Shown here: piece by piece, positions 6,425-42,504 of the stretch
Numbering within the stretch: position 1 is the stretch's first letter
How the letters are laid out: every line of letters starts with the position of its first letter
Assembly: GCA_045593885.1 (NCBI GenBank)
Contig: JAZNXN010000034.1
Location: forward strand, 10,692 to 74,691
Source of the DNA: Eubacteriales bacterium
GTDB taxonomy: Bacteria > Bacillota > Clostridia > Oscillospirales > CAG-272
Direction of reading: 5' to 3'
Length of the DNA: 64,000 nucleotides
Program-made: the position numbers and the translations under genes
Notes under the pieces: generated by a model
Told to the model about the DNA's origin: nothing
The model's input: only the letters and a program-made list of their open reading frames with translations
Database searches by the model: none

Positions 6425-6501
6425 GTGCAAAAACTAAAAAAGATGTTTTTGCGGGGTTTCGTATGTACTTGAACCCACGCGTCCCAATCACACCAAAGGC
6501 G

Positions 6502-6654
6502 TGTATATCATCAAAACGCAGTTTTGTATATCACCAAGGCGTGAGCCTTGTATATCATCATTGCGAAATAGGATACAGCCTGCGTCTGATGATATACGCC
6601 TGCGGCGATGATATGCACGCTAACGCGTGATGATATGCCATTGCTTTCGCAATG
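6502..6654. repeat. Cluster of TGTATATCATCA-like motifs (3 forward, 3 inverted) separated by small hairpins
   Basis: Forward copies at 6502, 6525, 6549; inverted copies at 6587, 6607, 6628. Confidence 0.8.
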
Positions 6655-6693
6655 GATAAAAAAATTCGACAAGTCGAAACTTGTCGAATTTTT

Positions 6694-6830
6694 TGGCAGG
6701 GGCAGAAGGTAAGCGAGGGAAAAACAGTTGATAACTGTTTTTCGTGATGCGCCCCAAGAAAACAAGGAGAAATCAAGCAAGGCTTGCCGAGTGATGATTT
6801 CGACTATGCTTTTCGAGCCGTCGGAGAACC
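6694..6830 (-). repeat. 121-bp tRNA-associated element (6710-6830) fused to a duplicate of tRNA-Trp nt 61-76 (6694-6709)
   Basis: 103/121 ungapped identity to 42269-42389; TGGCAGGGGCAGAAGG is identical to 7832-7847. Confidence 0.9.
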
Positions 6831-6962
6831 CTTGGGTTCGAGCCCGATAGGCTAATAAAAAATCCGCATTCAAAAAGAATGCGGATTTTTTGTGTAAGAC
6901 GGACAAAAAAGATATTTCTGTGAGGTTGCGTATGGGCTTGAACTCACGTGCCATGCGAAAAA

Positions 6963-7250
6963 TTATTTCACTTCGCTTTTTATAATGCTTAGTAGTTTTG
7001 GAAAAGTATCCTCTTTTTCAAAATAACGATAGGAACTATGGCATATCATTTTGTCATTGCAATAAATTTCACCGCGATCAGTTATAAACGTATAATGCTT
7101 ACTTGGAGAATTTATTTTTACACTCATATTGCCAAAATGTTTTTTATCATATTCGAATGACATAAGGGTACAGTTGTCAGGAAGGATTTGTTTAATGTCC
7201 GTTATCATTTCGTTATTGCGTTGTTCTCGTATCTTTTTGAAAATATTCAT
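6963..7250 (-). CDS. Hypothetical protein (AT-rich cassette gene)
   Basis: 95-aa ORF that overlaps the stop codon of the upstream four-helix-bundle gene. Confidence 0.65.
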   Translation of the reverse strand: MNIFKKIREQRNNEMITDIKQILPDNCTLMSFEYDKKHFGNMSVKINSPSKHYTFITDRGEIYCNDKMICHSSYRYFEKEDTFPKLLSIIKSEVK

Positions 7251-7594
7251 TTTACATTATCCTTAACCGTATTAATGGAGGCAATCAAAATTCTTTTTAT
7301 TTCCGTACATTTATCAAGCAAAGTTTTATCGTGATAATATTCACTTTCTAAAATAAGCTCGATCCAATATTCTGTTTCAGAGCACTCTTTCAAAGCAATT
7401 TGAAGTTTAGCAATAAAGTCAGCCTTGCCGTGTGCATAAAAAGCTTCACGAATGTTTGCGCCAATACTCGTTCCCGAACGCAAGAACTGATTGATCAATG
7501 CACTTTCACATTTTGCCACTCGGAGCTGCTTGCACACCTGTATCCCTTCAAGCGCAAATGCTTTTGACTTTATAATCAAAGGACTGTCAGCCAT
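7247..7594 (-). CDS. Four-helix-bundle protein (23S rRNA-IVS protein/bAvd-like family)
   Basis: QFLRSGTSIGANIREA...ADFIAKLQIALKECSETEYWIELI signature; RBS AAAGGTGG. Confidence 0.9.
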   Translation of the reverse strand: MADSPLIIKSKAFALEGIQVCKQLRVAKCESALINQFLRSGTSIGANIREAFYAHGKADFIAKLQIALKECSETEYWIELILESEYYHDKTLLDKCTEIKRILIASINTVKDNVK

Positions 7595-7711
7595 AACTTT
7601 ACCACCTTTCAACTTGCTACGATAATTATAACATAAAACTTATTACTTTTCAACTTGATATAACAAAAAATGCTTTTCGACCAAAGGGAGAAAAGCTACA
7701 TCAGATATCTT

Positions 7712-7795
7712 TTCACTATTCACTATTACTTATTACTTGCCAAAAATCGACAAGAGTGTTTTTAGTGAAAAGTGAAGAGTGAAAAGTGAAAAAGT
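7712..7795. repeat. Inverted heptamer tandem arrays (TTCACTA)n / (AGTGAAA)n
   Basis: TTCACTATTCACTATTACTTATTACTT at 7712-7738; four AGTGAA(A/G) units at 7764-7791. Confidence 0.8.
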
Positions 7796-7831
7796 AAAAT
7801 CGACAAGCTTCTGTCGAAACTTGTCGATTTT

Positions 7832-7907
7832 TGGCAGGGGCAGAAGGGCTCGAACCCACGACCCACGGTTTTGGAGACCGGTACTCTACCAACTGAGCTA
7901 TACCCCT
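7832..7907 (-). tRNA. tRNA-Trp (CCA)
   Basis: AGGGGTATAGCTCAGTTGGTAGAGTACCGGTCTCCAAAACCG...GGTTCGAGCCCTTCTGCCCCTGCCA cloverleaf, 76 nt. Confidence 0.95.
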
Positions 7908-42102: not shown

Positions 42103-42189
42103 GCGGGTATGGCGGAATTGGCAGACGCGCTAGATTCAGGTTCTAGTGACTTCACGGTCATACAGGTTCAAGTCCTGCTACCCGCACCA
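42103..42189 (+). tRNA. tRNA-Leu (CAG)
   Basis: GCGGGTATGGCGGAATTGGCAGACGCGCTAGATTCAGGTTCTAG...GGTTCAAGTCCTGCTACCCGCACCA; long variable arm, 87 nt. Confidence 0.95.
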
Positions 42190-42504
42190 CTAGCATTACG
42201 AGAAATCGTAGTGCTTTTTCTTTTCGTGGTGAGGGTATGGACTTGAACTGAATTGCGACAGCAATTCAGGTTCTCCGACGGCTCGGAAGGCATAGTCAAA
42301 ATCAGCACTCAGCAAGCCTCGCTCGATTTTTTCTTGCTTCCTTCGGGCGCTTCGCGAAAAACAATACTCAATTGTTTTTCCCTCGCTTACCTGCTACCCG
42401 CACCACTAGCATTACGAGAAATCGTAGTGCTTTTTCTTTTCGTGGTGAGGGTATGGACTTGAACTGAATTGCGACAGCAATTCAGGTTCTCCGACGGCTC
42501 GGAA
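42174..42504 (+). repeat. Exact 115-bp direct repeat (42174-42288 and 42390-42504, period 216) containing the tRNA-Leu 3' end; spans the 121-bp element at 42269-42389
   Basis: Direct sequence comparison. Confidence 0.9.

What the first reader, a model, noticed from the sequence alone, without database searches (positions are those of the whole stretch)
6694..6845. Same 121-bp element fused at tRNA position 60/61 at two different tRNA loci (Trp and Leu)
Seen: the minus strand of 6710-6830 aligns without gaps to 42269-42389 at 103/121 identity by hand count. Both copies end in ...TTTTTCCCTCGCTTA. Each is joined directly to the last 16 nt of its own neighbouring tRNA (CCTTCTGCCCCTGCCA for Trp, CCTGCTACCCGCACCA for Leu), so the junction falls exactly after the T-loop. 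Each is preceded by an inverted copy of the cognate T-arm (GGGCTCGAACCCA; GGACTTGAAC). The 3' hairpin covaries (GAAAAACAG..CTGTTTTTC versus GAAAAACAA..TTGTTTTTC). Established: tRNA-targeting integrases duplicate tRNA 3' ends, usually as part of kb-scale islands. Inference: a small non-autonomous mobile or recombination module, or a structured RNA ending in a tRNA-type CCA, that recognises tRNA T-arms generically. No recombinase is present in the window, so any enzyme would act in trans.
Basis: partly seen in the sequence, partly recalled or inferred. Interest (0 to 1): 0.85.

Follow-up and report, generated by a model that had tools for sequence, protein, structure and literature searches.

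The report
Clostridial tRNA-linked repeat with mobile core
Behind two tRNA genes sits the same 116-base folded, gene-less insert, lodged in a spare copy of the tRNA's end; it is an uncatalogued gut-Clostridia counterpart of the still unexplained 'tRNA-linked repeats' of E. coli, and it likely moves as folded single-stranded DNA with the help of an enzyme that I did not find.

Summary
In detail: 103/121 identity, and both copies join tRNA nt 61-76 of the cognate tRNA. The '121-bp element' is 5 nt of T-arm copy plus a 116-nt core. Each unit reads: tRNA end, terminator, imperfect inverted tRNA end, small hairpin, T-arm start, core (replacing nt 57-60), nt 61-76. All 30 genome hits of a pattern that left the 3' flank free were followed by a tRNA tail. 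The core covaries strongly, is present or absent at matching loci, and switches target tRNA. Relatives sit in other tRNA loops, often on the antisense strand, so 'generic T-arm recognition' is too narrow and a CCA-ended RNA cannot be the general function. E. coli tRNA-linked repeats (TLR/RtT, RF00391) have the same layout but an unrelated core. This is therefore a new family of a known, unexplained kind. The scan has noted TLR-like units on much other DNA (347 notes matched a word search). Pairing statistics lean towards folded single-stranded DNA. No mobilising enzyme was found; HUH and RT genes showed no significant co-occurrence.

The parts
7832..7907 (-). intact tRNA-Trp(CCA), the cognate gene of the Trp unit
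   Evidence: ARAGORN; Rfam
7796..7831 (-). terminator-type hairpin directly after tRNA-Trp
   Evidence: sequence
7247..7612 (-). four-helix-bundle (23S rRNA IVP-like) gene, part of a ~0.9-kb cassette nested between tRNA-Trp and the core unit; not part of the core family
   Evidence: TIGR02436 E=6e-28; 83% identical cassette lies after the core instead of before it in L045
6857..6891 (-). terminator-type hairpin heading the Trp unit
   Evidence: sequence
6835..6845 (-). inverted copy of the tRNA-Trp T-arm (11 nt exact)
6826..6838 (-). turn hairpin and forward copy of tRNA nt 51-56; hairpin resembles other Trp/Pro/Gly units, not the Leu sister unit
6710..6825 (-). 116-nt structured core (long bulged rod, A/T-rich 3' hairpin, conserved 9-nt tail), replacing tRNA nt 57-60
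6694..6709 (-). exact copy of tRNA-Trp nt 61-76
6659..6693 (-). terminator-type hairpin after the tail copy, followed by an unrelated mini-hairpin array
42103..42189 (+). intact tRNA-Leu(CAG)
42191..42225 (+). terminator-type hairpin and T tract
42226..42248 (+). imperfect inverted copy of the tRNA-Leu 3' end, back to the T-loop
42249..42273 (+). turn hairpin and forward copy of tRNA nt 50-56 (7 nt match)
42274..42389 (+). 116-nt structured core, second copy
42390..42405 (+). exact copy of tRNA-Leu nt 61-76
42406..42504 (+). start of a second tandem unit (period 216 bp), cut off about 15 nt into the core
   Evidence: 115-nt exact repeat from 42390

Best explanation
This is a tRNA-linked repeat (TLR-type) unit: a 116-nt folded, gene-less core lodged in a loop of a spare partial copy of the neighbouring tRNA gene, and it likely moves as folded single-stranded DNA handled by an unidentified enzyme acting in trans. 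Shown: the layout; the conserved fold; presence and absence of the ~217-bp unit at matching loci; tandem copies; the same core lineage at different tRNAs; and related cores in either orientation and in other tRNA loops. Inferred step 1: the core is inserted into one strand at a tRNA loop, with a precise 3' end (a 9-11-nt tail after the hairpin, joined to CC) and loss of 0-5 target bases. Inferred step 2: fold-back copying leaves an inverted copy of the uninterrupted target plus a duplicate of the gene end, so an intact tRNA survives; other outcomes would be lethal. Inferred step 3: the finished unit is then gained, lost, amplified or core-swapped by recombination through the 16-nt tail, the terminator and the conserved core ends. 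An HUH-type (IS200/IS605- or RAYT-like) nuclease is my favoured but untested candidate.
For: Junction: 30 of 30 hits of a pattern that left the 3' flank free are followed by a 16-mer within 0-4 mismatches of a tRNA tail (24 within 1), against 7 of 1500 control 16-mers within 3. In 29 units with a tRNA upstream the tail is cognate: 21 exact, 25 within 1 mismatch; 23 have at least 4 nt of forward T-arm before the core; 25 have an inverted copy scoring 18 or more. Fold: 94.9% of cells paired, 12 of 30 pairs compensatory, 0/500 shuffles as high on cells paired, 40-52% paired when slid. Filled or empty: G425 lacks the unit that G423 and G437 carry at tRNA-Leu(TAG); G425 shares 744 bp downstream with G423 (90%) and 1587 bp upstream with G437 (84%). 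Target switch: the window's Trp core groups with Leu-linked cores (100/99 and 96/96); the 12 Trp-linked cores as one clade are rejected, p-AU 0.00024 (40 rows). Orientation: of 55 other-class cores, 29 are antisense (14 at the tRNA 5' end, 15 behind the 3' end) and 2 sense. DNA-like pairing: 1645 Watson-Crick, 22 G-T, 20 A-C cells, against 1250, 98, 27 in tRNA stems. C-TNC-G triloops (GNA on the other strand) number 34 against 7.8 in shuffles, maximum 12 of 40; GNA mini-hairpins are more stable in DNA than RNA (PMC13037366, passages). Same layout in E. coli TLRs.
Against: No enzyme was found. Y1_Tnp is in 19 of 39 core-positive and 40 of 111 core-negative family genomes (p=0.19); RVT_1 in 14 of 39 and 27 of 111 (p=0.21). 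No core and no tRNA lies beside 20 RAYT-like and 12 IS200-like genes. G000 (76% complete) has neither family. Both strands fold about equally well with RNA or DNA parameters. The pairs in the G-T/A-C count were chosen for high pairing, and one invariant U-G pair of the T-loop subfamily was not among them; the sequences are related, so counts are not independent. The window's Trp unit is a mosaic (Leu-type core, Trp/Pro/Gly-type turn hairpin), which plain recombination between resident units explains without a new insertion. Some tail copies are foreign to the local tRNA (L233, 3 mismatches; L255, an Asn-like tail before tRNA-Lys). No circle or excision intermediate was seen. Gain cannot be told from loss in the filled/empty trio.
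Confidence: 0.52

Rival explanations
1. A functional RNA trailer like RtT: read-through from the tRNA promoter yields a folded RNA that ends in a tRNA-type CCA and acts as a decoy, processing aid or small RNA.
For: Strong covariation. E. coli rttR is annotated as a small RNA, and three rRNA-operon TLRs are transcribed, processed and bind Hfq and CsrA in vitro (PMC8144298, passages). The T-loop subfamily is always co-oriented with the tRNA.
Against: 29 of 55 other-class cores lie antisense, 14 of them at the tRNA 5' end. A terminator lies between tRNA and core. G-T is no more frequent than A-C. Presence is patchy: the right-end pattern is in 38 of 213 genus genomes. Many copies are truncated. 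The two RNA runs laid covered only tRNA of other organisms, so expression is untested.
Confidence: 0.15
2. A miniature integrative islet: a ~215-bp circle whose 16-nt tRNA tail is an att core, integrated by a tyrosine integrase in trans.
For: Exact direct repeats bound the unit, and the empty site is clean. The T-loop/acceptor junction is a common island subsite, and Islander ignores candidates under 2 kb or without integrase (PMC4383910, passages). Some pairs of cores flank cargo genes (L266, L267, L270, L272).
Against: One core lineage uses many tRNAs, loops and both strands. It does not explain the inverted copy or the forward T-arm stub. No tyrosine integrase was among 95 neighbouring ORFs; one serine-recombinase fragment lay beside L044. 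No match in phage or plasmid collections.
Confidence: 0.12
3. A miniature retro-element: an RT in trans copies the core RNA, primed at the target or by the tRNA annealed to the inverted copy, and template jumps build the zig-zag.
For: Precise 3' end, ragged 5' side with small target deletions. The inverted copy is complementary to the tRNA 3' end, like a primer-binding site (analogy recalled, not tested).
Against: No RT in G000 and no significant RT co-occurrence. Three genomes at least 95% complete with 4-6 cores (G096, G174, G183) have neither RT nor Y1_Tnp hits. Antisense and 5'-end geometries do not fit tRNA priming. No ribozyme or other Rfam family matches.
Confidence: 0.1
4. No dedicated enzyme: palindromic cores stall forks, host template switching makes the inverted triplication, and gene conversion or transformation spreads the units.
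For: At least 7 of 26 tRNA-Leu loci carry other, unrelated inserts with a duplicated tRNA end. Microhomology joins and truncations are common (L266, L268). No enzyme was found.
Against: Exact reuse of one junction (nt 60/61) in five tRNA isotypes, and a conserved tail and fold across subfamilies, imply specific recognition.
Confidence: 0.11

Closest known systems
E. coli tRNA-linked repeats (TLRs), including the tyrT-tyrV 178-bp repeats / RtT (rttR; Rfam RF00391); PMC8144298 (passages read)
   Same: Gene-less units behind tRNA genes, in 1-5 copies, ending in a copy of the upstream gene's 3' end, with no known function. In K-12 tyrV and lysQ I see the same order: imperfect inverted tRNA end, tiny turn hairpin, forward T-arm start, folded insert, tRNA tail; the insert is shared between Tyr and Lys loci.
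   Different: Cores are unrelated: RF00391 in 0 of 61 family genomes, my model has no hit on the two E. coli loci, blastn finds none in E. coli genomes. The repeat is 16 nt rather than 18-19 nt, with loss of nt 57-60. Here related cores also sit antisense, in other loops and at tRNA 5' ends. The words 'inverted', 'mobile', 'insertion' and 'duplication' do not occur in PMC8144298.
tRNA-targeting genomic islands (tyrosine integrase; Islander, PMC4383910, passages read)
   Same: Intact tRNA plus displaced 3' fragment, junction at the T-loop/acceptor subsite, tandem arrays.
   Different: About 200 bp, no integrase, an inverted target copy, and one core at many tRNAs, loops and strands.
REP/BIME with TnpA-REP (RAYT) and non-autonomous IS200/IS605 ends (PMC8266576, PMC3733652, passages read)
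   Same: Bulged palindromes, tandem arrays, a fixed end a short distance from a hairpin; ssDNA cleavage and strand transfer would fit.
   Different: No GTAG tag 5' of a 20-50-nt palindrome, low copy number (3 in G000), strict tRNA location, and no core beside 32 Y1-transposase genes.
Bacterial MITEs (PMC3184786, passages read)
   Same: Small, gene-less, folded, dependent on an enzyme in trans.
   Different: No terminal inverted repeats; target bases are deleted rather than duplicated as a short TSD; target-derived flanks.
IS110 bridge RNA (PMC11208160, passages read)
   Same: Non-coding DNA that carries target-matching sequence for both strands.
   Different: Target copies flank the core as a fold-back rather than lying in internal loops; no recombinase gene between the ends; not scarless.

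Membership tests
TLR kind (E. coli tRNA-linked repeats) | gene-less unit behind a tRNA/rRNA gene whose 3' end repeats that gene's 3' end | tested here: met
   the repeat is 16 nt here, 18-19 nt in E. coli
TLR kind (E. coli tRNA-linked repeats) | one to several tandem copies; insert shared between loci of different tRNAs | tested here: met
   216-bp tandem in the window; three-copy arrays L083, L084, L019; tree
TLR kind (E. coli tRNA-linked repeats) | transcribed and processed RNA (shown for some E. coli members) | tested here: inconclusive
   no RNA run holds this organism's stretch
RtT RNA, Rfam RF00391 | covariance-model match above the gathering score | tested here: not met
   window and loci negative; 0 of 61 family genomes; E. 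coli control positive
tRNA-integrated genomic island | tRNA plus displaced end fragment in direct orientation | tested here: met
tRNA-integrated genomic island | tyrosine integrase encoded inside; kilobase size | tested here: not met
   the Leu unit has no ORF; the Trp interval holds a TIGR02436 gene; the only PF00589 hit of G000 is on another contig
REP/BIME-RAYT | GTAG-tagged 20-50-nt palindrome next to a tnpA-REP gene | tested here: not met
   consensus; no core beside 20 RAYT-like and 12 IS200-like genes
REP/BIME-RAYT | ssDNA cleavage and strand transfer by a Y1 HUH enzyme | not testable with these tools
   needs an in vitro assay
MITE | terminal inverted repeats and short target-site duplication | tested here: not met
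   alignment; junctions
IS110 bridge-RNA element | DEDD recombinase gene between the ends; guide loops inside the RNA | tested here: not met
   no such ORF in the units or among 95 neighbouring ORFs; a genome-wide PF01548 search was not run
Retro-element / retrozyme | self-cleaving ribozyme or linked RT | tested here: not met
   Rfam; RVT_1

The most novel reading that the evidence does not exclude
TLRs, from E. coli to gut Clostridia, are an unrecognised class of protein-free mobile ssDNA elements. A folded core is written into any loop of a tRNA gene on either strand, and a fold-back step builds a self-made, target-matched cassette that keeps the gene intact and can later carry cargo genes. 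The enzyme is a widespread, still unassigned host or HUH-type protein with retargetable specificity.
Probability: 0.25. Interest if true: 0.85.

Novelty: new variant of a known kind. Interest (0 to 1): 0.5.

Why it matters
tRNA-linked repeats have been known since 1978 and have no known function (PMC8144298). They are usually read as RNA trailers. This family supplies natural experiments: filled and empty loci, target switching, reversed cores and mirror-image units at tRNA 5' ends. These point to a mobile DNA module and away from an RNA function. Because E. coli K-12 carries the same layout, the question can be tested directly in a laboratory strain. If a dedicated enzyme exists, it inserts DNA into tRNA loops without destroying the gene, and it would help explain how small accessory genes stack behind tRNAs without an integrase. 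Island finders that require 2 kb and an integrase miss such units. The kind itself is not new, and this scan has met it many times.

Tried and rejected
Rfam: no family except tRNA in the window or in 40 loci at gathering scores (one unrelated ZMP-ZTP riboswitch); only a chance mir-142 match (E=8.6) at the Leu locus in E-value mode. Phage, plasmid and E. coli blastn: no match. Viral contigs: three patterns gave 0, 2 and 0 hits; both hits lacked the core. Autonomous version: none among 84 metagenome hits of the right-end pattern (22 printed after a hairpin/core/tRNA filter), nor in 40 fetched genus regions with unpaired or distant ends; these were truncations, other subfamilies, cargo-flanking pairs or chance matches in genes. 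HUH and RT co-occurrence: not significant. Strand choice by folding energy: no asymmetry; my early note that G-U pairs favour the sense strand is withdrawn. Sequencing runs: all 20 held under 10% of the words; the two RNA runs laid covered tRNA only. The first tree had three mislabelled rows and the second one spurious row; one search is the clean run, with 3 of 43 rows left out (two long branches, one non-member). The MAFFT alignment of the filled/empty trio misplaced the gap; I rely. Ten literature searches found no description of this Clostridial family; the library lacks most subscription papers, including Rudd 1999, and two papers sought by recalled id were not held. Not run: IS110, IS91-type, serine-recombinase or relaxase searches across genomes; full annotation of the window's ORFs.

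Full report
Observation. The minus strand of 6710-6830 matches 42269-42389 without gaps at 103 of 121 positions, E=7e-37 within the genome. ARAGORN finds tRNA-Trp at 7832-7907(-) and tRNA-Leu(CAG) at 42103-42189(+). Each copy is followed by the exact last 16 nt of its own tRNA and preceded by an inverted T-arm copy. tRNA-Trp is 1 kb upstream; a TIGR02436 four-helix-bundle gene lies between. The Leu unit is a 216-bp tandem with a truncated second copy. The window is G000:C34:10692-74691, a 76%-complete genome. Relatives are titled Clostridia or Eubacteriales MAGs.

Anatomy. The unit reads: intact tRNA end, terminator, imperfect inverted copy of the 3' end, small turn hairpin, forward copy of nt ~50-56, 116-nt core, nt 61-76, terminator. 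The core therefore sits in the T-loop of a spare partial tRNA copy and replaces nt 57-60. Where a longer half-tRNA precedes it (L008, L056, L266, L286, L290), the join after nt 56 is plain.

Generality. A pattern built from core-internal motifs, with the 3' flank left free, gave 30 hits in the genome collection. All 30 are followed by a 16-mer within 0-4 mismatches of a tRNA tail, 24 within one; 7 of 1500 control 16-mers came within 3. Of 29 distinct units with a called tRNA upstream, 21 tails are exact and 25 within one mismatch. Targets are Leu (four anticodons), Trp, Pro, Gly and Lys. The right-end pattern occurs in 38 of 213 genus genomes, with no control matches. Covariance model R1 hits 40 of 151 family genomes and 8 of 150 class genomes; R2 hits 8 of 151 order genomes; each count includes G000. 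These are draft genomes, so absences are weak.

Structure. On 31 cores, a bulged rod plus an A/T-rich 3' hairpin is 94.9% paired, with 12 of 30 pairs compensatory. No shuffle of 500 reached that pairing, and slid controls give 40-52%. The search pattern fixed some columns. Across 87 cores of the wider set the best covarying columns are the same helices. At 21 well-paired positions there are 1645 Watson-Crick, 22 G-T and 20 A-C cells; acceptor and T stems of 117 tRNAs give 1250, 98 and 27. C-TNC-G triloops, which read GNA on the other strand, number 34 against a shuffled mean of 7.8. GNA mini-hairpins are more stable in DNA than in RNA (PMC13037366, passages). Folding energies do not prefer a strand or a molecule. 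This leans towards folded DNA but does not prove it: pairs were chosen for good pairing, and the sequences are kin.

Mobility. tRNA-Leu(TAG) is empty in G425 and carries a ~217-bp unit in G423 and G437. G425 shares the downstream flank with G423 and the upstream flank with G437. Gain and loss cannot be told apart. Of 26 tRNA-Leu loci, 6 carry this core (one degenerate) and at least 7 carry unrelated inserts with a duplicated tRNA end. In a tree of 40 cores the window's Trp core groups with Leu-linked cores (100/99; 96/96), and the 12 Trp-linked cores as one clade are rejected, p-AU 0.00024; Gly-linked cores do form one group. The window's Trp unit keeps a turn hairpin of the Trp/Pro/Gly type, so this switch may be a core swap between resident units. 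Two DNA runs from different studies hold a related contig spanning inverted copy, core and tail.

Beyond the T-loop. The model also finds relatives with the same inner motifs, 3' hairpin and tail but a different outer helix. Of 87 distinct cores, 55 fall outside the T-loop class (two of them are 5'-cut T-loop copies). Of these 55, 29 lie antisense to their tRNA: 14 at a duplicated 5' end (Ser, Pro, Arg) and 15 inside the 3' zig-zag with the core reversed (Met, Pro, Cys). Two are sense, 6 have a tRNA near without a 10-nt flank match, and 18 have no tRNA called. G000's third copy is of the 5'-end kind. By eye the 3' end mostly joins a CC and 0-5 target bases are lost. The inverted arm copies the uninterrupted target. 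A CCA-ended transcript cannot come from antisense or 5'-end units, and T-arm recognition cannot be the general rule.

Enzyme. None was found. G000 has no Y1_Tnp or RVT_1 hit and one partial tyrosine recombinase on another contig. Of 59 and 36 ORFs near cores, the one mobile-type family that recurs is the four-helix bundle (3 and 1 hits), with one serine-recombinase fragment. Co-occurrence with Y1_Tnp (19/39 against 40/111) and RVT_1 (14/39 against 27/111) is not significant. No core or tRNA lies beside 32 Y1-transposase genes. No autonomous version, and no phage or plasmid copy, turned up. Some pairs of cores flank 1-7 kb of accessory genes without an integrase hit.

Mechanism. I commit to a two-stage model (confidence about 0.5). 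Rarely, the folded core is inserted as ssDNA into a tRNA loop, and fold-back copying leaves an inverted target copy and a duplicated gene end, so the tRNA survives. Commonly, the finished unit spreads, amplifies, truncates or swaps cores through its short repeats. The layout, fold, patchiness, target switching and orientation freedom are shown. The single-strand intermediate, the fold-back step and the HUH candidate are inferred. TnpA-REP and IS200/IS605 enzymes cut and join folded ssDNA near hairpins (PMC8266576, passages), which is the basis of the analogy.

Comparison with what is known. E. coli has 22 tRNA-linked repeats at ten loci, ending in 18-19 bp of the upstream gene, with no known function (PMC8144298, passages). 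I fetched two K-12 loci. The tyrV repeats and the lysQ unit show the same order of inverted end, turn hairpin, T-arm start, folded insert and tail, and Rfam RtT marks both loci. The cores are unrelated. So this works like a TLR and belongs to that descriptive kind, but is not a member of RF00391. It fails the defining tests for islands (PMC4383910, passages), MITEs (PMC3184786, passages), REPs (PMC3733652, passages) and bridge-RNA elements (PMC11208160, passages). PMC2864571 (passages) gave no matching motif. No supplements were read. Ten searches found no paper on this family, but the library omits most subscription papers.

Earlier notes. The scan has recorded similar units in Patescibacteria, archaea and other gut Clostridia, and 347 notes match TLR/RtT words. 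None matched this sequence. I ran the E. coli comparison before seeing. These notes are leads, not support.

Verdict. Real, and a new family of a known but unexplained kind. Interest 0.5: the kind is old and often met, but reversed cores, 5'-end mirrors, empty sites and target switching turn a 1978 puzzle into a testable one.

Noticed in passing
window 7247-7612; G000:C1:21025-21333; G000:C7:36327-36620: All 3 TIGR02436 four-helix-bundle genes of G000 lie just downstream of tRNA genes (Trp, Gln, Tyr). The Trp and Gln ones are headed by 7-mer low-complexity runs that enclose an inverted copy of the tRNA end and terminator (window 7738-7754).
   Followed up: partly
window 6460-6657: An array of mini-hairpins with repeated short boxes follows the second terminator. 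Similar arrays follow tRNA-Gln, -Met and -Leu elsewhere in G000. Earlier notes liken such arrays to Gut-1; Rfam did not call it at the gathering score.
   Followed up: no
window 6900-6945 and 6430-6480: Two copies of a T-arm-like motif followed by a conserved A/T tract end the four-helix-bundle cassette and the hairpin array just before a terminator; related ends occur behind tRNA-Gln (C4) and tRNA-Arg (C8).
   Followed up: no
G000 C15 tRNA-Glu(TTC), C9 tRNA-Glu(CTC), C19 tRNA-Leu(GAG), C21 tRNA-Arg(CCT), C26 tRNA-Cys: Other, unrelated inserts with the same zig-zag layout or parts of it.
   Followed up: no
L228, L229, L232, L234, L236, L245, L247: Several further core types behind tRNA-Leu(CAG), with duplications of 16 to 65 nt; no Rfam match.
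   Followed up: partly
L255 (G467:C15:1462-2014): A core ending in a non-cognate, Asn-like tRNA tail sits between two complete tRNA-Lys genes, followed by a cognate T-loop unit; this genome is in another family.
   Followed up: no
L268 (G430:C101:4074-5222); L266: A cargo ORF is cut off and joined to the core's 3' end through about 12 nt of microhomology; in L266 a core is shortened between two internal look-alike motifs.
   Followed up: partly
L270 (G393:C21), L272 (G568:C29), L267: Cores at both ends of 1.3-7.4-kb stretches of sugar-catabolism or unknown genes with Pro-type tRNA fragments; no integrase hit.
   Followed up: partly
L009, L072, L076, L092, L088, L167, L301, L302: Cores with no tRNA called nearby; some may use non-tRNA targets, for example another palindromic repeat in L302.
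   Followed up: no
L187:1-234; L170:1-112: In L187 two cores of different subfamilies lie back to back in opposite orientation; L170 holds a second, oppositely oriented core 1.6 kb from the first.
   Followed up: no
L286:1616-2452: A PF13354 beta-lactamase-family ORF lies about 0.7 kb from a decayed core attached to a half tRNA-Pro copy.
   Followed up: no
L306, L307 (E. coli K-12 tyrT and lysT regions): TLR cores are rich in GNA-loop mini-hairpin motifs on the tRNA strand, and the tyr turn hairpin has the same 6 letters as some Pro units here.
   Followed up: partly
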